Shown here: piece by piece, positions 22,566 through 36,350 of the stretch | Layout: each line of letters starts with the position of its first letter | Position numbering within the stretch: position 1 is the first letter of the stretch | NCBI GenBank assembly: GCA_903884815.1 | Contig: CAISGE010000002.1 | Location: 109,955-173,954, forward strand | Direction: 5' to 3' | Source of the DNA: Candidatus Omnitrophota bacterium | GTDB lineage: Bacteria; Omnitrophota; Omnitrophia; Omnitrophales; Aquincolibacteriaceae | DNA length: 64,000 nt | The notes under the pieces: model-generated | The model's database searches: none | What the model was told of the DNA's origin: nothing | The model's input: only the letters and a program-made list of their open reading frames with translations | Translations under genes and position numbers: made by a program

Positions 22566-23099
22566 ATGAAATGTCCTCGCACAGGCGCCAACATGAAAGA
22601 AGTCGAGATCAACAAGGTTAAGGTGGATATTTCCGAGGGATGTGGCGGCGTCTGGTTCGACAATCTGGAATTTGAAAAATTCGATGAGGCTCATGAAAAC
22701 GCGGGCGACAAACTGGTTGATTTGATGGCGTCTTTCGCGAAGGGGAAGGGACCGGTCGACCTGGACAAACGGATCAACTGCCCCCGTTGTGCGGACACGG
22801 TGCTGATGCGGCATTTTGAAAGTCCCCTCCGGAAGATCCAGATCGATCAATGTCCGGGATGCGGCGGGATCTGGTTGGATGCCGGGGAGCTGAAGGATTT
22901 CCGGAAGCTTTTTCCGACGGAAGCGGACCGGAAAAAAGCCGGCGACGAATTTATCGCGAAGTCCATCATGCCCATCCTTGAGGCCAAAGCCAAAGAGGGC
23001 CAGGAAGAGCTCGAAAAGGCCCGGCGTGTTGCCCACATGTTCCGCTTCATTTGTCCGAGTTATTACATCCCCGGGAAACAAGCAGGCGCCGCTTTTTAA
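22566..23099 (+). CDS. Double zinc-ribbon (zf-TFIIB-like) protein; hypothetical.
   Basis: Two CPxC...C..CGG(V/I)W(F/L)D modules (CPRTGANM...CGGVWFD and CPRCADTV...CPGCGGIWLD). RBS AAAGGAGA. Confidence 0.55.
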   Translation: MKCPRTGANMKEVEINKVKVDISEGCGGVWFDNLEFEKFDEAHENAGDKLVDLMASFAKGKGPVDLDKRINCPRCADTVLMRHFESPLRKIQIDQCPGCGGIWLDAGELKDFRKLFPTEADRKKAGDEFIAKSIMPILEAKAKEGQEELEKARRVAHMFRFICPSYYIPGKQAGAAF

Positions 23100-23155
23100 A
23101 AACAGCTGGGGGCCTGCGGATGACGGCTCCCTTTTCCTTTGATGGACGAGGGGAA

Positions 23156-23746
23156 ATGCAAAGAAAAACAATAGCGTTCCTTTTTCTCGCCCTCCTGCTT
23201 TATCCCGCCACACTGCTTTTCTCCGAATCACCCCTGACTGTCACCCGCGTGATCGACAGTGATACCCTGGAACTTTCGAGCGGCGAAACCGTGCGCCTGA
23301 TCGGGATCGATTGTGATGAGCAGGAATACAGTCCAGCAGACGCGGCGTATCTTAACCGTGGCAAGAAGTGGGAACGCGGCCCAGATTCACTAAAACACGC
23401 CAAGGAAGCGGCGGAGTTCACTCGCAAGCTGGTGGAAGGCAAGAAGGTCAGACTAGATTACGATGTCCAGCGGAGGGATAAATACGGGCGATTGTTAGCC
23501 TATGTTTATGTCTTGGTATGCAACAACTGCGATGTTCTTAGGGCGGCAGAATATGAATATCTGGATATGATAGATCCGGACGAAAGCAATGCTGTTTGTA
23601 TCTTTCTTAATGCAACCCTCATCAAGGCTGGCTACGCCCAAGTCGTGACCGTCCCGCCGAGTGTGAAGTACGCTGACCTGTTCGTGAAGCTGGAGAAGGA
23701 AGCCAGGGGGAGGAAAAGGGGGTTGCGAAGTGAGGGTAAAATTTGA
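23156..23746 (+). CDS. Secreted thermonuclease (staphylococcal nuclease, SNase)-like protein, copy 1.
   Basis: Signal peptide. SNase motifs RVIDSDTLEL, TVRLIGIDCDE and DKYGRLLAYVYV. The C-terminal tail is conserved with the other copies (KAGYAQ...VKY..LFVKLEKEAR). Confidence 0.75.
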   Translation: MQRKTIAFLFLALLLYPATLLFSESPLTVTRVIDSDTLELSSGETVRLIGIDCDEQEYSPADAAYLNRGKKWERGPDSLKHAKEAAEFTRKLVEGKKVRLDYDVQRRDKYGRLLAYVYVLVCNNCDVLRAAEYEYLDMIDPDESNAVCIFLNATLIKAGYAQVVTVPPSVKYADLFVKLEKEARGRKRGLRSEGKI

Positions 23747-24861
23747 GCGAAGAACATATGCGGAAATACAAGTATGACAACTTCGGCAATGATCTTGCTT
23801 CTGAGCTCGGGCAGAAAGTTCGATGCACCCGATGTTTGGGGCCGTCCAGCATCAGGAAACAGGATGGCGGCGCCGTGAATAAAGAGCTTCCGTATGACAT
23901 GTATATACATTGGCAGTTATTAAGGGAGTGTAATTTTTCATGTGAATATTGTTATTCTTCCCCGCAGACCGGCCCGGCAAAAAAAGCGGATGTTGCGCGG
24001 ATAGTTCACCGGTTAGATGCTTTTGGGAAGACATCTCTTATTTCATTTACAGGAGGGGAACCTTTTCTTGTTCCGAATTTTATCGAGCTGGTGAAGGAAT
24101 TAACAAAAAGACATTATGTTCGCATCGATACGAATCTCAGCCTTTTAGCAGCTTGCGAGAGCTTTATCAAGGAGGTTGATCCGGAAAGGATTTGCGAGAT
24201 AGTTTTTTCGATTCATGCCGGAGAAAGGGAGAAACGCAAGATGCCGCTGCGGGACTTGTGCGCTCTTGTAAGAAAGTTCCGAGATCGCGGATTTATCATG
24301 ACGGGAAATTATGTCGTCTACCCCACGCTGTTGAAGAGGTTCTCGGATGACATGAAAATATTTCGAGAGAATGCGGTCAGTGTTTTGCCTAGTTTGTTTG
24401 TCGGAAGACAGGGCGGTAAAAATTATCCAATGCATGCCGGCAGGTTAGCTTACGAGCAAAACGCCTTTGATTTGATCTCAGGGATAAATCCAAAGGTAAA
24501 TCTCGTTTTAAACAGGAGCGTCGGCGAATTGTGCCCGGCGGGGGTAAATTCATTTTTTGTTAATTCCGATTATAAGGTTTTTGCCTGTGCGGCTATCCGG
24601 AGGGAAATAGGCGACTTTTGGGGGGATTGGAAGATGTTTCCCAAGGTCGTGCGGTGTCCGATGGAGTATTGTTACTGCCCATTTAATAAACCTTTTGTGG
24701 TGGGTCAGAGGACTCAAATACAGACTTCATTGCTGAAAGACGCTCTCCATCGGAACGGCGAGGCATCCGTTTGGCAATCTAGATTCTTAACAAGGGATAT
24801 GCGGAGAGGGGTAAAAAGGTTTGTCGAGCGCCTTGTTGAAAAGTTCTCGCTGCGTGAATAG
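23743..24861 (+). CDS. Radical SAM enzyme with a C-terminal SPASM/twitch-like Cys cluster, copy 1.
   Basis: CNFSCEYC is a CxxxCxxC radical SAM motif. The C-terminus carries CPAG...C...CPMEYCYCP. The track start is a TTG at 23743 overlapping the SNase stop, and an alternative ATG lies at 23758. Confidence 0.75.
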   Translation: MSEEHMRKYKYDNFGNDLASELGQKVRCTRCLGPSSIRKQDGGAVNKELPYDMYIHWQLLRECNFSCEYCYSSPQTGPAKKADVARIVHRLDAFGKTSLISFTGGEPFLVPNFIELVKELTKRHYVRIDTNLSLLAACESFIKEVDPERICEIVFSIHAGEREKRKMPLRDLCALVRKFRDRGFIMTGNYVVYPTLLKRFSDDMKIFRENAVSVLPSLFVGRQGGKNYPMHAGRLAYEQNAFDLISGINPKVNLVLNRSVGELCPAGVNSFFVNSDYKVFACAAIRREIGDFWGDWKMFPKVVRCPMEYCYCPFNKPFVVGQRTQIQTSLLKDALHRNGEASVWQSRFLTRDMRRGVKRFVERLVEKFSLRE

Positions 24862-24910
24862 GCTTTAAATTGCAGAAGGAAGCACGGGAACAGAAAAGGG
24901 GGATTTGGAA

Positions 24911-25384
24911 ATGAAGAAGTACTTGTTCGCGATCGCGGCATTGTGCCTGGCGGCCACCACCATTGCGGCGGAGAGTCGCGCATCAAACGGATCAACAGAG
25001 ACCCTTAAGAAGGTTAGATCGGTTCTGCCTCAAGGCTGGTTCATTGTCAAAGTTGTGAAAGGGCCGTCTTCTCCGAACCATTACGCGGAGGATGCACAAG
25101 AGGCTGTTGTTGTTTTGATCAGCAATCCATCAATCGATGCGAAAATGAAAAGTAAAGCCAAGATCGGGCCGTACGAGCTCTATCTGATGGACCTTCGCTA
25201 TAAAGAGAAAAGCCATACAGTCTCAGCTCTGCATCCGGAGGTCGCGGAACGGCCTGCGCGATACCTCGGCAGAAGTGAGCATTTTAAAATTTATTGGGGT
25301 GGGGGTATGTGGGGACTCGATCCTGTTGAAAAGAAACTTGAGGCTGACGTCAAACAAGCGTTGAGCATTGCTACGGAAAAGTGA
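24911..25384 (+). CDS. Secreted hypothetical protein.
   Basis: Signal MKKYLFAIAALCLAATTIAAESRA. Preceded by the recurring junction element at 24878-24914. Confidence 0.5.
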   Translation: MKKYLFAIAALCLAATTIAAESRASNGSTETLKKVRSVLPQGWFIVKVVKGPSSPNHYAEDAQEAVVVLISNPSIDAKMKSKAKIGPYELYLMDLRYKEKSHTVSALHPEVAERPARYLGRSEHFKIYWGGGMWGLDPVEKKLEADVKQALSIATEK

Positions 25385-25396
25385 GGAGTCGTTAAA

Positions 25397-26356
25397 ATGA
25401 GGAAGCTATTATTCGTGATCACGGCGCTGTGCCTAGCGGCCTCGGCGGGGTATGGGGAGGAATCTTCCGGGAATTTCCCGTTCAGCAAGATCGAGAGGAG
25501 GGGCGGCGTGGTCCGCCTGCAACTTCCTGACCATGGATTCCGGTGGCTCATAGGTGTAAATACGGAAAACCGCGCGAAGCTCAGAAGGTCGAACTATTCG
25601 GAGGTCGTGGAGTTGAAGACCCGCGGGATCTTGGGTGGGGACAAGCTTTATATGATTGAAAAGCATCAACAGATCGTCATCGAACCTATTTTTCAGGGCA
25701 AAGCCCTTTTTTTAAAGCAAACCGTTAAAACGGATTTGCGTAGCATGGGCGGCTCCGTAAAGATTGAAAAATCCTTTATTCCCGTGCCGGACGAGGGAAA
25801 GCAGCTGCAAGCGAGCCTGGCGCCGGAGGGTTCTTTGGTTGTGAAACGCGTGATCGACGGTGATACCCTGGAACTTTCGAGCGGCGAAACTGTGCGTCTG
25901 ATCGGAATCGATTGTGAGGAAAACGAGTACAGTCCTGCCGAGGCGGTCTATCTTAACCAAGGAAAAAAATGGAAGCGCGCGCCGGGATCTCTGATGCACG
26001 CTAAGGCGTCGGCAGATTTCGCCCGCAAGCTGGTCGAGGGCAAGCAGGTTCGGTTGGAGTACGACGTTCAGAAGAAGGATAAGTCCGGCAGGACGCTGGC
26101 GTATGTTTATCTATTGCCAAGGCAGGCAGAGAATCATGACAAGACCGTTCTTGAATTCGGACGTTTTTTGGATGATGGTTATGGCGGGCCGGGAAAATCG
26201 AGCCTCGTCTTTATCAACGCCACCCTCATCAAGGCTGGCTACGCCCAAGGCATGACCTCCTCCAAGGATGCCATCCCGCCGAATGTGAAGTATCAGGAGT
26301 TGTTTGTGAAGCTGGAGCAGGAAGCCAGAGAAAATAAAAGGGGGTTGTGGAAATGA
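25397..26356 (+). CDS. Secreted SNase-like nuclease with an N-terminal extra domain, copy 2.
   Basis: Signal MRKLLFVITALCLAASAGYG. The C-terminal SNase domain (RVIDGDTLELSSGETVRLIGIDCEENEY...) is nearly identical at the DNA level to copy 1 (25852-25940 versus 23260-23345). Ends ...EARENKRGLWK*. Confidence 0.75.
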   Translation: MRKLLFVITALCLAASAGYGEESSGNFPFSKIERRGGVVRLQLPDHGFRWLIGVNTENRAKLRRSNYSEVVELKTRGILGGDKLYMIEKHQQIVIEPIFQGKALFLKQTVKTDLRSMGGSVKIEKSFIPVPDEGKQLQASLAPEGSLVVKRVIDGDTLELSSGETVRLIGIDCEENEYSPAEAVYLNQGKKWKRAPGSLMHAKASADFARKLVEGKQVRLEYDVQKKDKSGRTLAYVYLLPRQAENHDKTVLEFGRFLDDGYGGPGKSSLVFINATLIKAGYAQGMTSSKDAIPPNVKYQELFVKLEQEARENKRGLWK

Positions 26357-26691
26357 AAAAACAGAAAAATCAGAACGTGGTAACACCAAGCAACGTCCTT
26401 TCTTCTTACGACCCAGTTAAAGTTGCCTTGGCAGAAGGAAATATATACGGAGCAGGCGCTTCGGGGAGATTCAAGAAGAGTTGGGTGACAAGGCTGGGTT
26501 TTATTCTTCTGGCGCTACCGTTTCTTGGCTACGCTATCTTTATGTTTCCTATGATTTATAAGAGCTTGTCTGAAGCCATCAACGTCAAAACAACTGAGGT
26601 TACACTGGCGGTCGGCATTGGAGGCATGCTTCTCGACTTATCCTGCCTTTGGCTGGGACTTAAATTAATCGCAGGTGCGTTAAAGAAATAA
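26353..26691 (+). CDS. Small two-TM membrane protein; hypothetical.
   Basis: An ATGA overlap with the SNase-2 stop, inside the junction element. The hydrophobic helices suggest a membrane protein. Confidence 0.5.
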   Translation: MKKQKNQNVVTPSNVLSSYDPVKVALAEGNIYGAGASGRFKKSWVTRLGFILLALPFLGYAIFMFPMIYKSLSEAINVKTTEVTLAVGIGGMLLDLSCLWLGLKLIAGALKK

Positions 26692-26703
26692 TAGGAGGGG
26701 GTT

Positions 26704-27153
26704 GTGGAAAAGAAAAGGTCAATAGGTGTAATGGTCATTTCTATAGTTAATTTGCTGGTAGGTTTGCCCGTGCTTTTTTTATGCCTCCGTTTTTTCATTT
26801 CAAATTATGAAAAGTTCATATCGCAGCTAGGTGATTTGTCTTTTTTCAGCGTTTTCGTTTTTATACTCTATGTTCTTATGGCGCTAACAGCTGTTTGTTT
26901 CCCCGTCCTATTTAGTTATGCGGGAATTTCAACTTATAATCTCAAGCCTGGTTCCGTAGCCCTCAATAAGGCTATCGCTAAATGGACGATTGTTTTCGTG
27001 GGGGGAGGCGAAGTTATTTTTGCGGTTACGCTTGCACCGCATCTAATGATTAGAATGGAATTCAGCCTTCTTGTGACGCTTGCCGCCGTGCTGTATTTTA
27101 TGTGGGTGCAAATGTATTTCACGCATCCCAAAGTTAAGGAGCAGTTCAAGTAA
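26704..27153 (+). CDS. Four-TM membrane protein, paralog family A (C-terminus ...P.VK.QFK).
   Basis: GTG start after GGGGGTTGTGGAAAAG. The C-terminal THPKVKEQFK is shared with the 30507 and 34426 genes. Confidence 0.5.
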   Translation: MEKKRSIGVMVISIVNLLVGLPVLFLCLRFFISNYEKFISQLGDLSFFSVFVFILYVLMALTAVCFPVLFSYAGISTYNLKPGSVALNKAIAKWTIVFVGGGEVIFAVTLAPHLMIRMEFSLLVTLAAVLYFMWVQMYFTHPKVKEQFK

Positions 27154-27214
27154 GGACCCCGAACCGCAAGGGGCCGCGGCAGGGAGCGCGGGAACAGAAA
27201 AGGAGGTTGTGGAG

Positions 27215-27496
27215 ATGAAAAGGATATTTGTAATAATATTAACATTAAGTATCTTGCTTGGAATTTCTGACGTTGCGTTTGCGAAGCACCATCATTCTAA
27301 AAAAGCAGAGGCCCCGAATAACAAAGAGGATCAAGGGAGGAAGGTGACGTGCCTCGTCAAGGGCGTCCCGCAAATGGTGAGGACAGAAGGCGTTTGTAAG
27401 GATTTTAACGGCACCGTGGTGCCCGAAAAAACTCCTCCAGGAGCAACGGCGGTGCCGGAGAAAAAAATAACGGCGCAAAAAATAGAAAGCAAATAG
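27215..27496 (+). CDS. Small secreted protein (93 aa) with a His-rich segment and 2 Cys; hypothetical.
   Basis: Signal MKRIFVIILTLSILLGISDVAFA. Preceded by the junction element GGGAACAGAAAAGGAGGTTGTGGAGATG. Confidence 0.45.
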   Translation: MKRIFVIILTLSILLGISDVAFAKHHHSKKAEAPNNKEDQGRKVTCLVKGVPQMVRTEGVCKDFNGTVVPEKTPPGATAVPEKKITAQKIESK

Positions 27497-27537
27497 ATCC
27501 CTCGTTATGAATTGAAAATGATCAGAAAGGCAACTCT

Positions 27538-27741
27538 ATGACACGCATAATCTTTTTGGCAGCACTGGTTTTGACCTTCAGCGGTTGTTGCACTTCTCAG
27601 TCGGCGGCGGACTTGCAAATCAGCCAGGACGAGGCGAAGCTGACACGGATGTACCGCGAGTGCATTGAGAAGAATCTTGGCCATGGGGAAGCCATGAGGA
27701 AGGATTGCGAGCCGATCCTTGGCCCCTATGTAAGTCATTAG
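27538..27741 (+). CDS. Small lipoprotein (67 aa) ending ...KDCEPILGPYVSH.
   Basis: Lipobox LTFSGC. The 3' end is repeated at 29254-29310. Confidence 0.4.
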   Translation: MTRIIFLAALVLTFSGCCTSQSAADLQISQDEAKLTRMYRECIEKNLGHGEAMRKDCEPILGPYVSH

Positions 27742-27838
27742 AGGCGGGGGCGACGAAGGCGTTTAACCGGTTGGAGGGTGATGTTGAGTTCGGGGAGATG
27801 ATGGAGGATTAAAAGAGTAAGAAAAAAAGGAGGGTTCT

Positions 27839-28006
27839 ATGAACGGAAGTGATATGACAATGATCGTAACGTATATCGTCGGGAGTCTCCTTGTTTTTCT
27901 CGTTTGCAGAGAAATCGTGTGCTGGTATTTTAAAATGAATGAAGTCACGAAGTTGCTTCGGGAGATCAAGGAATGTTTGAAAAGCCATCCCTCCCTTAAG
28001 TCTTGA
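27839..28006 (+). CDS. 55-aa single-TM peptide (MNGSDMTMIVTYIVGSLLVFLVCREIVCWYFKMNEVTKLLREIKECLKSHPSLKS); hypothetical.
   Basis: A strong RBS AAAAAGGAGGG 7 nt upstream. Below the 60-aa cutoff of the ORF track. Confidence 0.35.
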   Translation: MNGSDMTMIVTYIVGSLLVFLVCREIVCWYFKMNEVTKLLREIKECLKSHPSLKS

Positions 28007-28090
28007 TGGGGGGGGGGAAGAGGCTGCTTCGGGATGCGGGCGTGCATCGTAGTTTATTAAAATGATGAGGCAGCTAAAGGAGAAGGCAAA

Positions 28091-28708
28091 ATGAAGCTAA
28101 AAACAATTTCTATTTTAGGATTGTTACTGGCGCTCAACATGGGCACCGTTTGGGCGGGACAGTATGTTTTTTCCGGGTATGGGAAACGAGTCTTGTTTGG
28201 TTCGATCGACAAATCTCGCATGTGTACCGTGAGCTTCTCTGTGGATGAGACGTTGCCATCGAGTGAAATTGTTGCGACCCTTCGGTTTACGAATACAGGC
28301 AATGCTCCGATGAAAGGCGATCCATTCTTCTCTCAAACAACGCAAATTGTTTCCAAGGATGAGAAGACCTATGAGGTGCCATGGGCGACTGGAATGGTGG
28401 AGTTGAAAGACGGAAGTAAATACGAGATTCCCGGCACAGTGACTCCCGAAAAGGTTGAAGATGTCGTGAAAAATCATCCCGAACTAAGAAAGCCGTCACC
28501 TTTTGAGACATTAGTGGCTCCTCTGGAGGATGACTCGGAGGAGGCTTCTAAAAACAAAGAAGTTCGACTTATTAACCCGGGCGGCATAGCGGAGAAGGTG
28601 CTGTATATCAAAGATCCGCTTATTCGGGCTGTGATAACATCAAATAATGTGAAGAGTGTCATTTTAAATTGCGGCATGGGAAAATTCGTTCTTACCCAAC
28701 AGTCTTAA
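28091..28708 (+). CDS. Secreted hypothetical protein (205 aa).
   Basis: Signal MKLKTISILGLLLALNMGTVWA. RBS AAAGGAGAAGG. Confidence 0.5.
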   Translation: MKLKTISILGLLLALNMGTVWAGQYVFSGYGKRVLFGSIDKSRMCTVSFSVDETLPSSEIVATLRFTNTGNAPMKGDPFFSQTTQIVSKDEKTYEVPWATGMVELKDGSKYEIPGTVTPEKVEDVVKNHPELRKPSPFETLVAPLEDDSEEASKNKEVRLINPGGIAEKVLYIKDPLIRAVITSNNVKSVILNCGMGKFVLTQQS

Positions 28709-28791
28709 AACATGAGATGAAAACGGGCGTTTATCAAGAGGATGCGGCGGATTAAAGGAAGAAATAACAGGAGCCGTTGGGGAAGGACATA

Positions 28792-28920
28792 ATGCGCTAT
28801 GCCATTGGCCTGATAAGTAAGTTGGATGGTCCCACGATAATGTTTCTGGGCATTTTCTCCCTTACTATCATTGTCATTTGCATGGTTGGGATATCTTTTC
28901 CAAAGAAGCGGGGAAAATAG
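28792..28920 (+). CDS. 42-aa hydrophobic peptide; hypothetical.
   Basis: RBS GGGGAAGGA upstream. A single TM. Very short, so the confidence is low. Confidence 0.2.
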   Translation: MRYAIGLISKLDGPTIMFLGIFSLTIIVICMVGISFPKKRGK

Positions 28921-28950
28921 GAGAGGGAGAACCTACGAAGGAGAGGATAT

Positions 28951-29253
28951 ATGCTGTTCGGATGTTTCGTGACCAGAGCTGAGGATCAAAGCGGTGCTAT
29001 GATGCGGATAATTCTGTTGTTATCTGGGATTTTGTTTTTGGCGGGCTGTGCGACATCGACATCCCAAACTGCTTTTGTGGATGCCGGGGGGCATGCGTGC
29101 ACGAAAGCCTTTAAAAAAGTCGCGCCTTTTGGAATTGCGATCAGCGAAAGCGTCGAATGCTCGGAGATTGCTACTTTTGCTCCCGCCGAATCGTCCAAGC
29201 CCTCATCCCCGAGGAAAGCAAAACAAAAGAAACATTGGTTCTGGCCATTTTAG
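28951..29253 (+). CDS. Lipoprotein (100 aa). Its stop is immediately followed, in frame, by a remnant EDKDCEPVLGP*.
   Basis: RBS AGGAGAGGA. Lipobox LFLAGC. The in-frame remnant after the stop matches the 27538 gene's C-terminus. Confidence 0.4.
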   Translation: MLFGCFVTRAEDQSGAMMRIILLLSGILFLAGCATSTSQTAFVDAGGHACTKAFKKVAPFGIAISESVECSEIATFAPAESSKPSSPRKAKQKKHWFWPF

Positions 29254-29340
29254 GAGGACAAGGATTGCGAGCCGGTCCTTGGCCCGTAGGGAAGTCATGA
29301 GAGGCAGAGTCGGGGAGCCGTAGAACCAAGCGAGGGGCGT

Positions 29341-30393
29341 ATGAACGCGATCGCGAAGGACGTTTATCAGAAGCTGGTGCGGGAGATCGGCGAGATCTAT
29401 GAGGGTGCGCGTAGGACCCTGGTCGAGGCCTATTGGAAGATCGGACAGAGGATCGTTCGGGTCGAACAGCAGGGCGCGGTCAAAGCCGTTTACGGTTCCG
29501 GTCTCCTTCAAAAAATCTCCGAAGAGCTTACGCGAAAGTGCGGTCCTGGATTTTCCGAATCGAACCTCCGGCGCATGCGGCAGTTCTACCTGAGTTACCC
29601 AATTCGTGCGGCGCCGCACGAATTGACCTGGACCCAATACTCGGAGCTTCTCCCCGTCGGGAATGCCGCAGTTCGGAAACGGCTTGAAAAGCAGGCCCTG
29701 AGGGAAGGACTTTCTCACAAAGCAATCCGCAAGCTTGTCCAGTCCGAACGCGTTCGCGAAGAAGCTCCTTCCCCCTCCGCAAGTCCCGAGTCCCGAGCGA
29801 CGAGTCCCGATCTTTTAATCCCCCTCCGCGGAAAGCTTCACACGCATCAGATCGCCCTCAAAGGGGGCGCGCTTTATCTCGACCTGGGCTTCCGTATTTA
29901 CCGCCCGCTGACGCCAGACCAAGCTGCGGCGGGGTTCAAAGAAGGCGATATTGTCAACGTGGAACCCCTTCAACCTACGCGGTTGAAAAGGTCGGAGTCT
30001 GGCTCCGGAGCCCTTTATACGTATGAAGCGGCGCTTGACCACATCTATGACGGCGACACGCAGTGGTATTTTATTTTTACGGGGCGCGGAGAAGGGCCGG
30101 GAAATAAAAGTGCCGGCTTTATGAAAAACGACAAGCTCCGGCTCCGCGGGATCGACTGTCCGGAGCTTAAGTACGCGGCGGGGAAGGCGGCGAAGCGCTT
30201 CGTGGTGGAGCTTTTCAGCCGGGCGGTGGGGATGACCGTCACGACGACGAAGCCCGACAAGTACGACCGCTACCTTTCCGATATCTTTCTCCGGATGAAG
30301 GACGGGGCGGAGCTTTTCCTCAATAACGAACTTCTCGCGGCCGGCCACGCCTGCTTGTACAGCGATCCCAAGCCCAAGGATTGGGAAGATTAA
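29341..30393 (+). CDS. Fusion protein with an N-terminal YhcG/DUF1016-like domain and a C-terminal SNase-like nuclease domain (no signal peptide).
   Basis: N-terminus LVEAYWKIGQRIVRVEQQGA...GFSESNLRRMRQFYLSYP is DUF1016_N-like. C-terminus HIYDGDTQWYF...LRLRGIDCPELKY...KYDRYLSDIF is SNase-like. Confidence 0.65.
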   Translation: MNAIAKDVYQKLVREIGEIYEGARRTLVEAYWKIGQRIVRVEQQGAVKAVYGSGLLQKISEELTRKCGPGFSESNLRRMRQFYLSYPIRAAPHELTWTQYSELLPVGNAAVRKRLEKQALREGLSHKAIRKLVQSERVREEAPSPSASPESRATSPDLLIPLRGKLHTHQIALKGGALYLDLGFRIYRPLTPDQAAAGFKEGDIVNVEPLQPTRLKRSESGSGALYTYEAALDHIYDGDTQWYFIFTGRGEGPGNKSAGFMKNDKLRLRGIDCPELKYAAGKAAKRFVVELFSRAVGMTVTTTKPDKYDRYLSDIFLRMKDGAELFLNNELLAAGHACLYSDPKPKDWED

Positions 30394-30435
30394 CGCGGGA
30401 AAAAAGAAAATGGGGTTAGGTCTTGTTTTCTTTGG

Positions 30436-30510
30436 GTCGTAAAGTATCTGGAGCTGTTCGTGAAGCTGGAGAAGGAAGCGAGAGAAAACGAAAGGGGGCT
30501 TTGGAAATGA
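30436..30510 (+). repeat. Orphan SNase 3'-end fragment (encodes VVKYLELFVKLEKEARENERGLWK*) carrying the RBS and start of the downstream gene.
   Basis: About 85% DNA identity to 26285-26356, the 3' end of SNase copy 2. No upstream SNase body. Confidence 0.6.
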
Positions 30511-30971
30511 AAACAGGAGCTGTGGTATTTATTAAAAAAGGAGAACAGAAAAAGAAACTACCCAAGGGTGTGAAAATAATTGGCATTTATCACAAGTGGT
30601 TTGGTGGAATTTTGGGTTTCTTCTCATCGCTTGCATATCTTTTTGAGCTTTTTTTTCCAAATTTTCTTCCTCAGTTTATTGGGAGGATGCCGCAACACGG
30701 GGAGAACATATTTTATGTAAAAATTTACTGTATCCTTAGTCTAATACTTTCACCTATCTGCTATATTTTGGGAAGCCAACTTTTGCAATTCAAGGAAAAA
30801 GGAAGGAAAGGCATTTTATATCTTACCGTTTTTTACATATTTCTTACTCCTTGGCTTAATGTGTTAGCGTATAACATAAAATCACCAAGCAGAATCATTT
30901 TGTCAGTATTGTTGCAGTCGTTGGTCATTTGCTATCTTAGCCGTCCCAACGTCAAAGCCCAGTTCCAATAA
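30507..30971 (+). CDS. Multi-pass membrane protein, paralog family A (C-terminus RPNVKAQFQ).
   Basis: An ATGA overlap with the orphan fragment's stop. The C-terminus is shared with 26704 and 34426. Confidence 0.5.
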   Translation: MKTGAVVFIKKGEQKKKLPKGVKIIGIYHKWFGGILGFFSSLAYLFELFFPNFLPQFIGRMPQHGENIFYVKIYCILSLILSPICYILGSQLLQFKEKGRKGILYLTVFYIFLTPWLNVLAYNIKSPSRIILSVLLQSLVICYLSRPNVKAQFQ

Positions 30972-31029
30972 GGACCCCGAACTACATGGGTACGTGGCGG
31001 GGAGCACGAGAACAGAAAAGGGGGTTGTG

Positions 31030-31674
31030 ATGGAGATGAATGATGCGGAAAAGTTGAAGGGAACTGGCGGGTGGTTGGGGCTATACATTCTCTTGGGATT
31101 TTTGGACCTTATATCGGTTCCGGTTATTTGTTTGTTTCCAACCGTTGAAACTGTTTCGCGTGCAGTTCTGATCATATGTAATGCAATAGCCTGCTTTTTG
31201 CTCATAAAGAAAAATAGTAATGCAGTGAAATGGACACGGCTTTTTCTATGGAGCCAAATGGGCGTGGATGCTGCTTTTTTCCTTTTCCATGCGCCTGATT
31301 TTTTATGGACATGGTCTTCCGGCAGGAATTACTACGAAGCTTTTTTTGCAATTAGAGGAACCCTGGGGGGTATTTTTTCGGCATGGATCTGGTTATCATA
31401 TTTTGAAAAATCAGAACGAGTAAAATTGAACTTTCCCGACTCTTTGCTCCCCGCACCCAGTAACCAATCGGTACGATTATGGAATTGGGTGGGTGTGATT
31501 GTGATATTAATTTACCTCCCACTCACAGTTTATGGGCAGGTATTAAAGGCCCAAATAAAACCGATCATAAGGGAATCTATAAAAAAAGGCGGGACATCTG
31601 TGGGCAGCCTGCTGAGAAATCCATTGGCATTACAGAAAGAGGCTCTCCGGAAATTGTGGGAATCGAAACATTGA
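31030..31674 (+). CDS. Multi-pass membrane protein (215 aa), possibly DUF2569-like.
   Basis: N-terminal GTGGWLGLYILLGF and 5-6 hydrophobic helices. Preceded by a conserved spacer GGACCCCGAAC...GAACAGAAAAGGGGGTTGTG. Confidence 0.45.
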   Translation: MEMNDAEKLKGTGGWLGLYILLGFLDLISVPVICLFPTVETVSRAVLIICNAIACFLLIKKNSNAVKWTRLFLWSQMGVDAAFFLFHAPDFLWTWSSGRNYYEAFFAIRGTLGGIFSAWIWLSYFEKSERVKLNFPDSLLPAPSNQSVRLWNWVGVIVILIYLPLTVYGQVLKAQIKPIIRESIKKGGTSVGSLLRNPLALQKEALRKLWESKH

Positions 31675-31681
31675 GAAAACT

Positions 31682-31861
31682 ATGACCGAAGACCCCAGCA
31701 AGAATAAACCCACCAATCTCGACATCCCCGGATCTGAGCCGGAAGCGAATTCTGAGGCGAAGGTCACTTTGCTGAAGCGCGGACTTTTGATCCTGATCTT
31801 TTTCGGCATAGGCATGCTCATCGCGACCGCCTGGTATATGACGAAGCGGTATTGGCGTTGA
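31682..31861 (+). CDS. 59-aa peptide with an acidic N-terminus and a C-terminal TM (…LLKRGLLILIFFGIGMLIATAWYMTKRYWR).
   Basis: Intact ORF. A frameshifted copy lies at 35486-35664. Confidence 0.35.
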   Translation: MTEDPSKNKPTNLDIPGSEPEANSEAKVTLLKRGLLILIFFGIGMLIATAWYMTKRYWR

Positions 31862-31927
31862 AAATGCAAGCACGGGGACAGACAAGGGGATTGTGGAAAT
31901 GAAGCTATTTTTCAAAAGGAGAATGAC

Positions 31928-32989
31928 TTGAGTCATTCCTGCCGCGCCATTTCTTTTTTGCCGATCACCGCTGTTCTTGAAATGACTTATCGGTGTAATC
32001 ACCAGTGCCAGTTCTGTTCCTGTCCTTGGATGACGGAGGAGCATGTCTCCATGAAGGGGAAAGAGCTTTCCACGGTTCAATGGAAGGCCGTTCTTGATCT
32101 TTTGGCGCGGCAGGGCGTTCACCAAATCTGTTTTACGGGCGGTGAAGCGCTATTACGCCCCGATCTTCCCGAGATCATGGCTTACGCTTCACGGCTGAAG
32201 GTTAAAGTGATCAAGGATAAAGACGGTCAACTGGCGGAACACATAGCGTCCCCCAAACTATACCTTTTATCGAATGGTGCGTTGGTCGACGATGCTATTC
32301 TCGACCTCTGCAAGAGAGATGACATCCAGCTGAGCATCAGCATGCCCGGGCTGCGCACTTTTGCCGAATTGACCGGCGGGGGTGACGTGAACAAAATACT
32401 GCGTATCTTCGAGAAAGCCCGGGAGCGCGGCCTTTCAACGGTGGTGGGCATCACTGTGACAAAGAAGAATCTTTTCGAACTCTACGAAACGATTTCAGCG
32501 GCCTTTCTTGCGGGGGCGACCCAGCTTTTATTAAATCGATTTCTTGAAGGCGGTCGCGGGCGCCGCTACGCCCGGGAACTTGCTTTAAGCCGCGCAGAAT
32601 TGATCGAAATGCTCGATGTCGCGGAACAAGCGCTTCATGATGCGGGCCGTTATGGCTCGGTGGGGACCGAGCTGCCGCTGTGCTTGTTCACCTCTGGTAA
32701 ATATAAGAGATTAGAGGTTTCAACGGGATGTTCTGCGGCCAAGGGTTTTTTTGTGATCGGTCCATCGGGAAAAGTGAGGGTTTGCAATCATTCGCCGGTG
32801 GAGCTGGCGCACTATTCGGAGATCGAAACCTTGAAAATGGATCCGTATTGGATGAAATTCGCCCGGAGTGATTACTTACCCGCCATGTGTGCGGGGTGTG
32901 AGGATGCCGGTCGTTGTGCCGGTGGATGCCGGGAAGCCGCGCATATTGTCGCGGGCGCGATCAACGCGCCGGACGCTCTGCTCATTTAA
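31928..32989 (+). CDS. Radical SAM/SPASM-domain enzyme (peptide or protein-modifying maturase, or anSME-like), copy 2.
   Basis: CNHQCQFC radical SAM motif and a full SPASM motif CAGCEDAGRCAGGC (CX2CX5CX3C), plus further upstream Cys. TTG start. Confidence 0.8.
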   Translation: MSHSCRAISFLPITAVLEMTYRCNHQCQFCSCPWMTEEHVSMKGKELSTVQWKAVLDLLARQGVHQICFTGGEALLRPDLPEIMAYASRLKVKVIKDKDGQLAEHIASPKLYLLSNGALVDDAILDLCKRDDIQLSISMPGLRTFAELTGGGDVNKILRIFEKARERGLSTVVGITVTKKNLFELYETISAAFLAGATQLLLNRFLEGGRGRRYARELALSRAELIEMLDVAEQALHDAGRYGSVGTELPLCLFTSGKYKRLEVSTGCSAAKGFFVIGPSGKVRVCNHSPVELAHYSEIETLKMDPYWMKFARSDYLPAMCAGCEDAGRCAGGCREAAHIVAGAINAPDALLI

Positions 32990-33003
32990 AGAAAGGAGAC
33001 AGG

Positions 33004-33645
33004 ATGCTTTTTATTCAAATCGCTTTGGTCACGATGCTTCTTCTTGGGCTCACGGTTTTATCCGCTTGCACAAAGCAGGCAAATCAATCAGATGCCAAGA
33101 GTAAGCAGGCGGTTACGTCCGAGCAAATCCAAGCCATGTCGCGTGAGGATATACAAAGAGCCTTGAAAAGGATCGAATCGAGTCATACGCCAACGTCGCA
33201 AAAGATGGGCGCGATGTGTTATGAACCAGTAGCTCCCGCATCTGGATACTTCGAATATGTTTGCCCCGTTGACGGCGATAAAACAGTTTTTTCGCTAAAA
33301 TCCAATGCATTTGATCAGGCAACCCATTTGCAGGAGCTTAGAGGCTCGGTCGAAAGATTGCGTCCGCTTGCTAAGGGGATCGCCCTATCACTTGATGAAG
33401 GCAGGCTTTGCGCCAAGTGTCATCCGGCGCTTCCTGATGCGGAAAGATTTGTTTCCCTGGTTCTTCAATATGCCGATGGAAGAACGGTCCGTACGGATCG
33501 GGTGACTCCTGAGGACCTCAAATATCTGACGGGGTTCTTTTCCGGCGGATTAAGCTATTTATCTCAAGGTCCGGATCAGGAGCCCCTGAAGCCTAAAGTG
33601 GCTCGCCTCAAGGAGCTGTTGGGTGAGAAAGGAGTAGGCACATGA
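33004..33645 (+). CDS. Lipoprotein (213 aa) with 4 Cys, including a CAKCH (CXXCH) motif.
   Basis: RBS AAAGGAGA. Lipobox LTVLSAC. Paralogous to 33642-34262. Confidence 0.5.
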   Translation: MLFIQIALVTMLLLGLTVLSACTKQANQSDAKSKQAVTSEQIQAMSREDIQRALKRIESSHTPTSQKMGAMCYEPVAPASGYFEYVCPVDGDKTVFSLKSNAFDQATHLQELRGSVERLRPLAKGIALSLDEGRLCAKCHPALPDAERFVSLVLQYADGRTVRTDRVTPEDLKYLTGFFSGGLSYLSQGPDQEPLKPKVARLKELLGEKGVGT

Positions 33646-34262
33646 TGTTCTTGCAAATTGTTTTTGTCGTGATGCTTGTTCTGGGGCTCACGGTTTTATC
33701 GGCTCGTGCGCAGCAGGCGGATCCGCCCGACACCAAGAGTAAGCAGGCGGTGACTTCCGAGAAAATCCAAGCCATGTCGCGTGAGGATATACAAAAAGCC
33801 TTGAAAAGGATCGAGTCGAGTAATCCGCCGGCGAAGAAGATGGGCGCGATGTGTTATAAAATGGGTGAAACACCTGAAAACTTTGAATATGTTTGCCCCG
33901 TTGACGGGGAGAAAACCGTCTATTCACGAGCCCAAGCATCTAAACAGGCAGTAGATTTGCAGGGGCTCAGAAGTTCGATCGAAAAATTGCGCCCGTTTGC
34001 AAAGGGGATCTCCCTATCGCTCGATGAGAGCAAACTCTGCGCCAAGTGTAATCCGGCACTCCCCGATGCGGAAAGATACGTTTCCCTTGTCCTTCAATAT
34101 GCCGACGGGAGAACGGTCCGCACAGACAGGGTGACTCCCGAAGATCTGCGTTATTTGACAGGGTTCTTTTCTGGAGGATTAAGCTATGAAACTTTTAATG
34201 AGGGGCAGGACCCCCTCAAGCCTGTTGAAGGTCGGTTGAAACAGCTTTTGGGGGAGCAGTAA
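33642..34262 (+). CDS. Secreted paralog of the 33004 lipoprotein (CAKCN in place of CAKCH).
   Basis: An ATGA overlap. Long stretches of near-identical DNA with the upstream paralog. Confidence 0.5.
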   Translation: MMFLQIVFVVMLVLGLTVLSARAQQADPPDTKSKQAVTSEKIQAMSREDIQKALKRIESSNPPAKKMGAMCYKMGETPENFEYVCPVDGEKTVYSRAQASKQAVDLQGLRSSIEKLRPFAKGISLSLDESKLCAKCNPALPDAERYVSLVLQYADGRTVRTDRVTPEDLRYLTGFFSGGLSYETFNEGQDPLKPVEGRLKQLLGEQ

Positions 34263-34353
34263 TTCCGCCTTCATAAAATGTCCGCTGTTTTTGGGAAGGT
34301 CCGTATGCGGAAGAGCGGGAACGGAAAAGAAGGCTAGTGCCTGTTTTCTAAGG

Positions 34354-34428
34354 GTCGTAAAGTATCTGGAGCTGTTTCGTGAAGCTGGAGAAGGAAGCGA
34401 GAGAAAATAAAAGGGGGTTGTGGAGATG
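34354..34428 (+). repeat. Second orphan SNase 3'-end fragment (frameshifted) carrying the start of the downstream gene.
   Basis: Near-identical to 30436-30510 apart from a 1-nt insertion (gctgtttcgtg versus gctgttcgtg). Confidence 0.6.
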
Positions 34429-34911
34429 AGAAAAATATCAGCAGGATTGAGGGGGACAGGATGGCTGTTGGTATTATATGGATTGATTTCTTTTTGCGGG
34501 CTTGCGGTTAGCTTCTTTTTAGGTGCTCTCCTTAGTATACGCCAAGCACCAATGTCGGAGTCACAATACCGTACATCTGTGGACCTTGTTACGAGTGTTT
34601 TTATGCCTCTTCCGAATAAATTTGTCGCAATAGGAATGCTTATAGGTGGGATAGGGGTATTAAGGCTAAAGTCATGGGGAAGATGGCTTGTGGTAGGAGC
34701 TATCCTTACCGATTTTATTCAAAAATCATTCTGGATGTACGCCTCTTCACGATTCAACCTAGATTTTATTTTTCAAACCGAATTGACTGTTTTTGTATTT
34801 TATTCTTCTCTTTTCTTGGAGTTGCTGGTTCTTTTGTATTTTATGCGCCCCAATGTAAAGATACAGTTCAAACAAGGAACCACGGGAACAGAAAAGGGGG
34901 TTGTGGTGTGA
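34426..34911 (+). CDS. Multi-pass membrane protein, paralog family A (…RPNVKIQFK then GTTGTEKGVVV encoded by the junction element).
   Basis: N-terminal GTGWLLVLYG. The C-terminal family motif. Its 3' end runs through the GGGAACAGAAAAGGGGGTTGTGG element. Confidence 0.5.
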   Translation: MRKISAGLRGTGWLLVLYGLISFCGLAVSFFLGALLSIRQAPMSESQYRTSVDLVTSVFMPLPNKFVAIGMLIGGIGVLRLKSWGRWLVVGAILTDFIQKSFWMYASSRFNLDFIFQTELTVFVFYSSLFLELLVLLYFMRPNVKIQFKQGTTGTEKGVVV

Positions 34912-35489
34912 ATGCTAAGGTTAGAGCTTTCATTGGCGGGGCACTCGGAGTTGTCGTAATTTTCATAATAACATTCAGTTCTATTGGATACGGGGAGGAA
35001 ACAAAAAGGGCGTACTATGCGAATGGGAAGTTGCAGGGCGAGATGATTTATAAGAACGAAAGTAATGAGTCTCTGTCTAAGGAATATTACGAAAGCGGGG
35101 AATTACAAGGCGAGACGCTTTTCAAGAACGGAATGCTTGAAGGGCCGTATAAACTTTATTACAGAAACGGACATGTGCGGGAAGATGGATCTTATAAAAA
35201 TGGCTATCGTGAAGGGCCGTATAAAGAATATTACGAAAGCGGGCAATTGAAAGAGGCGAAAGCTTATGTGAATGGAAAACCAGAGGGGCCGAGTGAAGAG
35301 TATTACCCGAGCGGGCAATTGCATGTCGAGAGAAATTTCAAGAACGGAATGCAAGAGGGACTGATGAAGTCTTATTACGAAAGCGGGCAATTGCAATCCG
35401 AGGTATCTTACGAGAAGGGAGAGCCTGGCGAGGGAACGATAAAGCTCTATGGTCTAGACGGAAAATTAATGTCCGTGAGAAAACCATGA
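34908..35489 (+). CDS. YwqK/MORN-variant repeat protein with an N-terminal TM anchor.
   Basis: GTG start overlapping the upstream stop. About 8 repeats of the form Y(K/E)NG.(L/R)EGPYKEYYESGQL. Confidence 0.55.
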   Translation: MNAKVRAFIGGALGVVVIFIITFSSIGYGEETKRAYYANGKLQGEMIYKNESNESLSKEYYESGELQGETLFKNGMLEGPYKLYYRNGHVREDGSYKNGYREGPYKEYYESGQLKEAKAYVNGKPEGPSEEYYPSGQLHVERNFKNGMQEGLMKSYYESGQLQSEVSYEKGEPGEGTIKLYGLDGKLMSVRKP

Positions 35490-35664
35490 CTCCAGACCCT
35501 ATCAAAAAGCAACTCTCCGACCCCGCGATCCCAGGATCTGAGACGGAAGCGAATTCTGAGGCGAAGGTCACTCTGCTGAAAGCGGACTTTCGATCCTGAT
35601 CTTCCTCGGCATAGGTATGTTGATTGCAACTGCCTGGTTGATGGCGAAACGGTATTGGCGTTGA
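35486..35664 (+). pseudogene. Frameshifted copy of the 59-aa peptide gene (31682-31861).
   Basis: About 85% DNA identity to 31712-31861, with a 1-nt deletion producing a premature stop (…KVTLLKADFRS*). Confidence 0.4.
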
Positions 35665-35763
35665 AGATTGAATTACGGGAACAAAAAATGCGTCCCCGTG
35701 GGACGCCGTTCCGTCCCGAGGTTATTCAGAGTTTATCGTGGTGTCTCTAAAATGGAGGTGAGT

Positions 35764-36246: not shown

Positions 36247-36350
36247 GCACCAGTTTTTATTTTACAGCCCGGCGGTTCTGCGGCCAGTTGGAAAGACCGG
36301 ACGCAGTCTCGTTTTCAGGAAGGACGACTCAACGGCGGGAAGGATGAAAG

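What the first reader, a model, noticed from the sequence alone, without database searches (positions are those of the whole stretch)
23743..32989. Two radical SAM/SPASM-type enzymes embedded among small Cys-containing secreted or TM peptides, possibly peptide or protein maturation
The gene at 31928-32989 has CNHQCQFC together with a canonical SPASM CX2CX5CX3C (CAGCEDAGRCAGGC). The gene at 23743-24861 has CNFSCEYC and a C-terminal Cys cluster. SPASM enzymes are typically RiPP or protein maturases, such as sactisynthases, anSME and QhpD. Nearby candidate substrates are the 55-aa peptide (27839), the 93-aa His-rich and Cys-containing secreted protein (27215), the 59-aa peptide (31682), a 10-codon uORF (MKLFFKRRMT) right before rSAM-2, and the two Cys-rich lipoproteins directly downstream (33004 and 33642). 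No sulfatase substrate for an anSME-like enzyme lies nearby.
Basis: partly seen in the sequence, partly recalled or inferred. Interest (0 to 1): 0.65.

Follow-up and report, generated by a model that had tools for sequence, protein, structure and literature searches.

The report
Radical SAM enzyme with partner proteins
One of the two radical SAM enzymes forms, with the two genes just downstream, a widespread but unnamed two-gene module that most likely modifies a conserved Cys-Tyr site in small zinc-ribbon proteins; the other enzyme and the nearby small peptides are unrelated to it.

Summary
Both genes and all quoted Cys motifs are at the stated coordinates. Only rSAM-2 (31928-32989) is a true SPASM enzyme. 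rSAM-1 (23743-24861) has a single twitch-like Cys cluster, and its homologues lie in polysaccharide gene clusters.

The real finding is a conserved module: rSAM-2 plus the two paralogous ~210-aa proteins downstream (33004-33645, 33642-34262).
- Starting from the enzyme, 68 of 80 loci across more than 12 phyla carry 1-5 tandem partner copies directly beside it. Most of the rest carry a divergent version.
- Starting from the partner, 54 of 57 informative loci carry the enzyme.
- No third gene family is conserved.

In 255 unique partner domains, Cys71, Tyr72 (motif A-M-C-Y), Cys85, Cys133 and Cys136 are essentially invariant. The family has no Pfam or NCBIfam model and no Foldseek match in the PDB. 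Its N-terminus looks more like an uncleaved membrane anchor with a cytoplasmic domain than a conserved lipoprotein signal.

The 55-, 59- and 93-aa ORFs and the uORF are not conserved with the enzyme.

Best reading: an uncharacterised rSAM/SPASM protein maturase with tandem protein substrates. The chemistry is unknown.

The parts
31928..32989 (+). rSAM-2: radical SAM/SPASM enzyme (353 aa, TTG start), the enzyme of the module
   Evidence: It carries CX3CX2C (C23, C27, C30), C252, C268-X12-G-X4-C286 and C321-X2-C-X5-C-X3-C334, all invariant or nearly so in the family. It scores 78 bits on Pfam Radical_SAM. TIGR04085 SPASM is matched by 18/18 family members. It aligns end to end with PqqE/MftC/PapB profiles but far below their cutoffs, and with the PqqE structure 6c8v.
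33004..33645 (+). Partner protein 1 (213 aa): N-terminal hydrophobic helix, linker, then a conserved domain with A-M-C-Y and a 4-Cys zinc-ribbon-like site. Probable substrate.
   Evidence: It starts 14 nt after the rSAM-2 stop. It is homologous to the proteins beside rSAM-2 homologues in other phyla. Its residues matching the partner-2 numbering (C71, Y72, C85, C133, C136) are essentially invariant in 255 domains.
33642..34262 (+). Partner protein 2 (206 aa), a 71%-identical paralogue of partner 1
   Evidence: Its start overlaps the partner-1 stop by 4 nt. Paralogy is shown by repeats D2, D6, D11 and D15 and by alignment A3. AF2 model: pLDDT 77.5. No PDB fold match.
31899..31931 (+). 10-codon uORF whose TGA stop overlaps the TTG start of rSAM-2. 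Probably translational coupling, not a substrate.
   Evidence: Sequence read. The ATG belongs to the island's repeated RBS element (D4/D5). Orthologous locus L009 has an unrelated 9-codon uORF that ends 1 nt before its TTG start.
23743..24861 (+). rSAM-1: radical SAM enzyme with one twitch-like auxiliary Cys cluster. It is a separate gene and not part of the module.
   Evidence: Radical_SAM scores 60 bits, with no SPASM match. Only 34 homologues were found. Four of four homologue contexts with DNA are polysaccharide gene clusters. The top structural match of the AF2 model (pLDDT 85) is BlsE, a twitch-domain enzyme that acts on a sugar nucleoside.

Best explanation
Two unrelated things lie in the span.

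(1) rSAM-2 and the two paralogous genes downstream form a self-contained, widely distributed module. It consists of a cytoplasmic radical SAM/SPASM enzyme and 1-6 tandem copies of its cognate protein.
- Shown: the synteny holds in both directions. The gene junctions are tight or overlapping. The motifs are conserved.
- Inferred: the partners are the enzyme's substrates. The enzyme cleaves SAM at the CX3CX2C cluster. The 5'-deoxyadenosyl radical abstracts a hydrogen in or near the invariant Ala-Met-Cys-Tyr loop, which lies just before a Cys4 (Cys3Asp in Omnitrophota) zinc-ribbon-like site. The SPASM clusters have 7 conserved Cys for two clusters, which leaves one possible open ligand site. They would bind the substrate Cys and/or take up an electron.
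- Most likely chemistry, by analogy with thioether-forming SPASM enzymes: an intramolecular Cys-S-to-carbon cross-link or an oxidation of that Cys.
- The enzyme has no room for a leader-recognition (RRE) domain and no PqqD-like neighbour. It therefore probably recognises the folded or folding partner domain directly, as anSME and QhpD do.
- The partner domain probably stays on the cytoplasmic face of the membrane, tethered by an N-terminal helix.

(2) rSAM-1 is an independent twitch-type radical SAM enzyme. It probably acts on a sugar or nucleotide-sugar.
For: - Enzyme side: 338 relatives were found in GTDB species genomes. Of the 80 loci fetched, from more than 12 phyla, 68 have 1-5 same-strand partner copies abutting the enzyme. 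Most HMM-negative loci still have an upstream ORF with (A/S)xCY plus CxxC...CxxC.
- Partner side: of 80 loci found with the partner, 54 have the enzyme adjacent, 23 end at a contig edge and 3 lack it. That is 54/57 informative loci.
- All-against-all clustering found no third conserved family.
- Copy number varies from 1 to 6 genes. Single proteins carry 2-4 tandem domains. This is the pattern of multiple substrates, not of a stoichiometric subunit.
- C71, Y72, C85, C133 and C136 are 100% conserved in 255 unique domains. C88 is 93% Cys and 7% Asp.
- The pLDDT block covering residues 71-80, which starts at Cys71-Tyr72, is the lowest within the domain (58).
- The enzyme has the SPASM motifs, and TIGR04085 is matched by 18/18 members. 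Its radical SAM motif starts at residue 23, so there is no N-terminal RRE.
- Topology: 85% of 177 partner N-termini have no Lys/Arg before the helix, against a mean of 2.3 just after it. Only 31% have a lipobox-like motif. Clostridial versions lack the helix.
- rSAM-1.
Against: - No experiment or structural complex links the enzyme to the partner, so co-occurrence alone cannot separate a substrate from an accessory protein.
- The modified residue and the chemistry are guesses.
- The four invariant Cys could all be metal ligands, Cys71 included, rather than a modification site.
- A lipobox-like Cys in about a third of partners, including window partner 1, leaves export possible. In that case modification would have to precede export.
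- The partner model rests on only 17 sequences (pLDDT 77.5), and I could not inspect its coordinates.
- For rSAM-1, TM-scores to BlsE are only about 0.5. The window copy is not in a glycan cluster; only glmS lies 1.2 kb upstream.
Confidence: 0.6

Rival explanations
1. The partner proteins are accessory components rather than substrates. For example, they could be rubredoxin-like or zinc-ribbon electron donors, or membrane-tethering adaptors. In this view rSAM-2 acts on something else, such as a membrane lipid or a small molecule.
For: The CPxCG...CxxC knuckles resemble rubredoxin or zinc-ribbon sites. Only weak zinc-ribbon profile hits were found. The N-terminal helix would place the complex at the membrane. 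No modification has been shown.
Against: Copy number ranges from 1 to 6 genes, with 2-4 domains in some proteins, which is unusual for a fixed subunit. One knuckle Cys is Asp in 7% of domains and Gly in one, which is a poor fit for an electron-transfer centre. The invariant Cys-Tyr lies outside the knuckles and is left unexplained. No lipid or small-molecule pathway genes are conserved nearby.
Confidence: 0.25
2. The whole 23.7-33 kb span is one peptide-maturation (RiPP-like) cluster, in which both radical SAM enzymes act on the small Cys-containing peptides (55, 59 and 93 aa, and the uORF).
For: The small ORFs exist and are called as genes on 35 contigs of the same organism. L007 shows a rSAM-1 homologue near a PqqD-like gene and other radical SAM genes.
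Against: None of 14 small ORFs has a tblastn hit in 170 loci that carry the module. The closest orthologous locus, L009, lacks them. The 59-aa ORF lies in a repeat whose second copy is frameshifted. The uORF arises from a repeated RBS element, and its sequence is not conserved. rSAM-1 homologues sit in glycan clusters. Neither enzyme has an RRE domain.
Confidence: 0.03
3. rSAM-2 is a housekeeping cofactor enzyme, a divergent PqqE, MftC, AhbD/NirJ or anSME. Its adjacency to the partners would then be incidental.
For: The best profile similarities are to PqqE (85 bits), MftC (70) and AhbD (66). PqqE is a full-length PDB match.
Against: All scores are 4-8 times below the curated cutoffs for every family member tested. 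No pqqA-D, mftA/B, haem d1 or sulfatase genes are conserved nearby. anSME structures are not matched at E<=1e-3. The adjacency to the partner holds in about 95% of informative loci.
Confidence: 0.04

Closest known systems
QhpD / QhpC (quinohemoprotein amine dehydrogenase maturation)
   Same: A SPASM radical SAM enzyme that acts on a cognate protein subunit encoded nearby, not on a leader-bearing peptide. Its targets are Cys residues, which form thioether cross-links. This comparison rests on my knowledge of the system.
   Different: There is no amine dehydrogenase, protease or exporter gene nearby. The partner is an unrelated ~165-aa zinc-ribbon-like domain in 1-6 tandem copies. No profile-level membership was seen among the reported NCBIfam hits.
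Anaerobic sulfatase-maturing enzyme (anSME)
   Same: An RRE-less SPASM enzyme of similar size that modifies a single Cys/Ser in a full-length protein. It acts in the cytoplasm, before export of the substrate.
   Different: The partner has no C/S-x-P-x-R motif. No sulfatase is conserved nearby. anSME chains are not matched by sequence at E<=1e-3.
Thioether-forming SPASM RiPP maturases (PapB, CteB, AlbA) and PqqE/MftC
   Same: The same domain architecture: radical SAM core plus SPASM. rSAM-2 aligns end to end with PapB, PqqE and MftC. It has seven auxiliary Cys, which is compatible with an open cluster site for a substrate Cys.
   Different: There is no RRE/PqqD domain or neighbouring gene. The substrate candidates are folded ~200-aa proteins, not short leader-core peptides. 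Scores are far below the family cutoffs (51-85 bits against 265-381).
BlsE / BtrN-type twitch radical SAM enzymes (comparison for rSAM-1)
   Same: They have a single auxiliary-cluster domain after the radical SAM core. BlsE is the top structural neighbour. The gene contexts are sugar-related.
   Different: TM-scores are only about 0.5 and identity about 17%. The weak profile links are to the uncharacterised STM4011 family (39 bits against a cutoff of 200; 24/28 family members). No substrate is known.

Membership tests
Radical SAM superfamily (both enzymes) | CX3CX2C cluster motif and a Radical_SAM core profile match above the cutoff | tested here: met
   PF04055 scores 78.4 bits (rSAM-2) and 60.4 bits (rSAM-1) against a cutoff of 29.5. 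The motif Cys are invariant or nearly so in both families.
SPASM-domain radical SAM enzymes (rSAM-2) | CX9-15GX4C, then CX2CX5CX3C, and a match to the SPASM profile | tested here: met
   C268-X12-G-X4-C286 and C321-X2-C-X5-C-X3-C334 are invariant. TIGR04085 is matched by 18/18 family members, best E 1.3e-10. Pfam PF13186 was not reported for the window protein at E<=0.01.
SPASM-domain radical SAM enzymes (rSAM-2) | A final (7th or 8th) Cys downstream of CX3C that completes both auxiliary clusters | tested here: not met
   There is no conserved Cys after C334. A conserved upstream C252 brings the total to 7 auxiliary Cys.
SPASM-domain radical SAM enzymes (rSAM-1) | CX2CX5CX3C motif and a SPASM profile match | tested here: not met
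   The motif is absent. The conserved Cys are C264, C282, C305 and C310 (C312 in most members). TIGR04085 is not among the families listed for it. 13/28 members weakly match a twitch-domain model.
PqqE / MftC / AhbD / NirJ (cofactor biosynthesis) | Score above the curated NCBIfam cutoff, with pathway genes nearby | tested here: not met
   Scores are 85 against a cutoff of 381, 70 against 265, 66 against 500 and 59 against 500. No pathway genes are conserved in 80 loci.
anSME | Sequence similarity to anSME and a sulfatase substrate with C/S-x-P-x-R | tested here: not met
   anSME chains are absent from the PDB sequence hits at E<=1e-3. The partner lacks the motif. No sulfatase family is conserved nearby.
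RiPP radical SAM maturases (sactipeptide, ranthipeptide, etc.) | An RRE/PqqD recognition domain, fused or adjacent, and a short leader-core precursor peptide | tested here: not met
   The radical SAM motif begins at residue 23 of 353, which leaves no room for an RRE. No PqqD-like family is conserved nearby. The conserved neighbours are proteins with a folded ~165-aa domain.
Bacterial lipoproteins (partner proteins) | A signal peptide with a positively charged n-region and a conserved lipobox Cys | tested here: not met
   Of 177 N-termini, 85% have no Lys/Arg before the helix. A lipobox-like motif is present in 58/188. In window partner 2 and many orthologues the Cys position is Arg.
Zinc-ribbon proteins (partner domain) | Two CxxC-type knuckles on beta-hairpins, and metal binding | tested here: inconclusive
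   CPxCG and CxxC are conserved, and a beta-hairpin surrounds the first knuckle in the model. Only sub-threshold zinc-ribbon profile hits were found. Metal binding cannot be tested here.
Viperin / STM4011 family (rSAM-1) | Score above the curated cutoff | tested here: not met
   Scores are 43 against a cutoff of 180, and 39 against 200.

The most novel reading that the evidence does not exclude
The module makes a previously unknown kind of modified protein. A radical SAM/SPASM enzyme would install a cross-link or a protein-derived cofactor at an invariant Cys-Tyr next to a zinc site, in a membrane-tethered cytoplasmic domain with a new fold. The module is present in multiple copies per genome across many, mostly uncultivated, bacterial phyla, which implies an unrecognised and widespread cellular function.
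Probability: 0.25. Interest if true: 0.8.

Novelty: new variant of a known kind. Interest (0 to 1): 0.6.

Why it matters
Radical SAM/SPASM enzymes with known protein substrates, as opposed to peptide substrates, are few; anSME and QhpD are the main examples. This analysis defines an enzyme-partner pair with very strong comparative support.
- The enzyme has more than 1300 homologue clusters, and 338 relatives were found in GTDB species genomes.
- The partner has at least 878 50%-identity clusters.
- The pair occurs in Omnitrophota, Planctomycetota, Verrucomicrobiota, Bacteroidota, Clostridia and other phyla.
- It has no Pfam or NCBIfam model, no name and no structural relative in the PDB.

The analysis gives a precise, testable site (the invariant Cys71-Tyr72) and a simple two-gene co-expression experiment. 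It also corrects a recurrent gene-call error: database versions of the enzyme start at an internal Met and lose the radical SAM motif.

Tried and rejected
- Defence-system models (PADLOC) gave only generic viperin-core similarity for both enzymes.
- Rfam, tRNA, promoter and terminator scans of the region gave nothing useful.
- A broad partner alignment was too divergent for the locus scan. A narrower alignment worked.
- An apparent enzyme-partner fusion in L045 turned out to be an out-of-frame read-through ORF in high-GC DNA, not a fusion.
- The three partner loci without the enzyme (L112, L127/L128) have uninformative neighbours.
- Three literature searches found no description of this module. 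The one recurring paper concerns other SPASM systems.
- I considered and rejected a link between rSAM-1 and the overlapping upstream nuclease gene: no homologue context shows a nuclease.
Full report
OBSERVATION

- rSAM-2 (31928-32989, +, TTG start, 353 aa) carries CNHQCQFC and CAGCEDAGRCAGGC.
- rSAM-1 (23743-24861, +, 372 aa) carries CNFSCEYC and a C-terminal group of Cys.
- Both pass the Pfam Radical_SAM cutoff of 29.5 bits, with 78 and 60 bits.
- The window is probably from an Omnitrophota genome. The closest database relatives of both enzymes and of the downstream proteins are named Candidatus Omnitrophica.

rSAM-2 IS A TRUE SPASM ENZYME OF NO NAMED FAMILY

An alignment of 18 homologues from several phyla shows these Cys invariant or nearly invariant:
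- the radical SAM Cys C23, C27 and C30;
- an extra C32;
- C252;
- C268-X12-G-X4-C286;
- C321-X2-C324-X5-C330-X3-C334.

There is no conserved Cys after C334, so seven auxiliary Cys serve two predicted clusters.

All 18 members match the SPASM model TIGR04085. The protein aligns end to end with PqqE, MftC, NirJ2, GeoRSP and PapB profiles. The scores are 52-85 bits against cutoffs of 265-500, so it belongs to none of them. By sequence against the PDB it reaches only SkfB, PqqE and MoaA, and not anSME.

The radical SAM motif starts at residue 23, which leaves no room for an N-terminal peptide-recognition (RRE) domain. Residues 9-20 are conserved across phyla, so the TTG start, or a start close to it, is correct. 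Database gene calls of 319 and 312 aa begin at internal Met codons and lose the motif.

THE CONSERVED MODULE

The word-index search found more than 1300 homologue clusters, with about 55% identity among those listed from other phyla.

In the first three foreign contexts examined (Planctomycetota, Omnitrophota, Melainabacteria), the enzyme lies next to 2-3 tandem genes of about 180-220 aa with no Pfam hit. These are homologues of the two window genes at 33004-33645 and 33642-34262.

I then tested the association at scale in both directions.
- From the enzyme: a scan of one genome per GTDB species found 338 relatives. The 80 loci fetched span Omnitrophota, Planctomycetota, Verrucomicrobiota, Lentisphaerota, Bacteroidota, Fibrobacterota, Fermentibacteria-like groups, Myxococcota, Spirochaetota, Armatimonadota, Clostridia, Riflebacteria and Coatesbacteria.
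- A profile of the partner hit 1-5 same-strand copies abutting the enzyme in 68 of these 80 loci. They are nearly always immediately upstream, and downstream in Omnitrophota.
- In most profile-negative loci (Clostridia, Prevotella), the upstream ORF still carries (A/S)xCY followed by CxxC...CxxC.
- From the partner: of 80 metagenomic loci found with the partner, 54 have the enzyme adjacent, 23 end at a contig edge beside the partner block, and 3 lack it although there is room. That is 54 of 57 informative loci.
- All-against-all clustering of every ORF in the enzyme-derived loci found no third conserved family. The other large clusters are antisense shadows of the two genes.

In the window the three genes are tightly packed: a 14-nt gap, then a 4-nt overlap. 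The 84%-identical orthologous locus L009 has the same enzyme-partner-partner order in a different neighbourhood.

THE PARTNER PROTEIN

Numbering follows the protein encoded at 33642-34262. Over 255 unique domains:
- Cys71, Tyr72, Cys85, Cys133 and Cys136 are 100% conserved;
- Ala69 is 98% and Met70 is 91% conserved;
- Cys88 is 93% Cys and 7% Asp; both window copies have Asp (CPVDG);
- Thr92 is 97%, Asp128 is 93% and Glu129 is 94% conserved.

The pattern is therefore A-M-C-Y, then CPxCGEKT about 13 residues later, then LDESxFCxKCxP.

Pfam and NCBIfam give only sub-threshold generic zinc-ribbon matches.

An AlphaFold2 model built from 17 sequences has pLDDT 77.5 and pTM 0.67. It shows a helix, a loop, a beta-hairpin around the first knuckle, a long helix and a small alpha/beta unit. 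The pLDDT block for residues 71-80, which starts at Cys-Tyr, is the weakest within the domain (58). Foldseek found no PDB match better than E 0.18 or TM 0.25.

A full-library profile search found 878 representatives of 50%-identity clusters at E<=1e-3. They include proteins with 2, 3 and 4 tandem domains. Two-domain proteins and fusions to other regions also appear in the fetched loci.

TOPOLOGY OF THE PARTNER

Window partner 1 does have LSAC after its hydrophobic helix, but partner 2 and many orthologues have Arg at that position.

Across 177 unique N-termini:
- 85% have no Lys/Arg before the helix; the stretch before the helix is usually only 2-4 residues (M-x-Y);
- the 15 residues after the helix carry a mean of 2.3 Lys/Arg;
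- only 58 of 188 have a lipobox-like motif;
- clostridial versions have no helix at all.

By the positive-inside rule this fits an uncleaved anchor with the domain in the cytoplasm. That location also suits a zinc site and a cytoplasmic Fe-S enzyme. This is an inference. Export of some copies is not excluded.

HOW THE MODULE MOST LIKELY WORKS

Shown:
- a two-family module with co-occurrence in both directions;
- variable partner copy number;
- tight gene junctions;
- an invariant Cys-Tyr beside a Cys4/Cys3Asp site;
- an RRE-less SPASM enzyme with seven auxiliary Cys.

Inferred:
- The partners are substrates.
- The enzyme abstracts a hydrogen in or near the Cys-Tyr loop.
- The most likely product is a thioether-type cross-link or an oxidised Cys. 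This rests on analogy with thioether-forming SPASM enzymes and with anSME/QhpD, which act on proteins without a leader-recognition domain.

I put about 0.6 on the enzyme-substrate relationship and much less on any specific chemistry.

The main rival (0.25) is that the partner is an accessory metal-binding or membrane-targeting component. The variable copy number, the multi-domain proteins, the Cys-to-Asp/Gly changes in one knuckle and the unexplained invariant Cys-Tyr all count against it.

rSAM-1 IS A SEPARATE MATTER

- Only 34 homologues were found, mostly from Omnitrophota.
- The conserved C-terminal Cys (C264, C282, C305, C310, and C312 in most members) form one twitch-like site. There is no CX2CX5CX3C.
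- Family members weakly match the uncharacterised STM4011 family (24/28) and a twitch-domain model (13/28), all below the cutoffs.
- All four homologue contexts with DNA are polysaccharide clusters. They contain glycosyltransferases, Wzy, Wzz, Poly_export, sulfotransferases, APS kinase and UDP-galactopyranose mutase. A more distant homologue lies in a phage-like context.
- The AF2 model (pLDDT 85) is closest to BlsE, a twitch enzyme that acts on a sugar nucleoside. SkfB, SuiB, viperin and anSME follow, with TM-scores of about 0.5.
- It most likely modifies a sugar or nucleotide-sugar. In this window it lies apart from such a cluster, 1.2 kb downstream of glmS.
- Nothing links it to rSAM-2.

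THE SMALL ORFs

- None of 14 small or membrane ORFs between and around the two enzymes has a tblastn hit (E<=0.01) in the 170 loci that carry the module. L009 lacks them as well.
- The 59-aa ORF lies in a ~215-nt repeat (31672-31885). Its second copy (35476-35688) is frameshifted.
- The 10-codon uORF starts at the ATG of a 33-nt RBS-bearing element that occurs ten times in this island. Its stop overlaps the TTG start of rSAM-2. L009 has an unrelated 9-codon uORF that ends 1 nt before its own TTG. This points to translational coupling to a weak start codon, not to a substrate peptide.

COMPARISON WITH KNOWN SYSTEMS AND NOVELTY

The module works like the protein-modifying SPASM systems (anSME-sulfatase, QhpD-QhpC). 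It is a member of neither, and not of any RiPP maturase family; see the membership table.

Three literature searches found no description of it. NCBI names its members only 'radical SAM protein' and 'hypothetical protein'.

I rate it a new variant of a known kind: a radical SAM/SPASM maturase whose cognate substrates are tandem, probably membrane-tethered, zinc-ribbon-like proteins with a new fold.

VERDICT

Interest is 0.6.

Noticed in passing
window 23000-36300: This is a lower-GC (0.46-0.52 against about 0.55), strongly G-over-C-skewed island with the main ORFs all on the plus strand. It holds three SNase-domain genes (23051-23746, 25397-26356, 29341-30393) and two relic SNase 3' ends (30439-30513, 34358-34432). 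It also has ten copies of a 33-75-nt element (SNase 3' end + RBS + ATG) in front of successive small membrane or secreted genes. It looks like a cassette array, possibly toxin/immunity-like.
   Followed up: partly
window 29341-30393: This is a DUF1016_N + SNase fusion protein. Its N-terminal domain matches many PADLOC PDC-S02 candidate defence models (E down to 4e-32).
   Followed up: no
window 26704-27153, 30423-30971, 34420-34911: Three multi-pass membrane proteins share similar C-terminal tails (…HPKVKEQFK, …RPNVKAQFQ, …RPNVKIQFKQ). Two of them follow relic SNase 3' ends.
   Followed up: no
window 31672-31885 and 35476-35688: A ~215-nt direct repeat (about 80% identity) flanks the block rSAM-2, two partners, a membrane protein and a MORN-repeat protein. 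The first copy contains the 59-aa ORF. The second copy is frameshifted.
   Followed up: partly
window 31899-31931; L009 981-1010: A short uORF ends at or 1 nt before the TTG start of rSAM-2 in the window and in its 84% orthologue. The two peptide sequences are unrelated. An orthologue with an ATG start (L010) has no obvious uORF in the sequence read just upstream. This suggests termination-reinitiation coupling.
   Followed up: partly
window 31928-32989 (database entries P0001, P0182-P0184): Public gene calls for this enzyme start at internal Met codons (319 or 312 aa) and lack the CX3CX2C motif. A 353-aa call also exists (P0181).
   Followed up: yes
L005 7144-9041: In a Melainabacteria locus the module is followed by two ~100-aa ORFs and a second, 404-aa radical SAM/SPASM gene.
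   Followed up: no
L036 3696-4964; L039 3365-4978; L044, L045, L066: The partner domain occurs fused to C-terminal ~24-aa repeats (L036) and to a ~350-aa N-terminal region (L039). It also occurs as two tandem domains in one protein. The representative library holds proteins with up to 4 domains.
   Followed up: partly
window 49350-59435: A 3361-aa ORF on the plus strand. I did not examine it.
   Followed up: no
window 22566-23099: A 177-aa protein with two TFIIB-type zinc-ribbon repeats lies between glmS and the first SNase gene.
   Followed up: no
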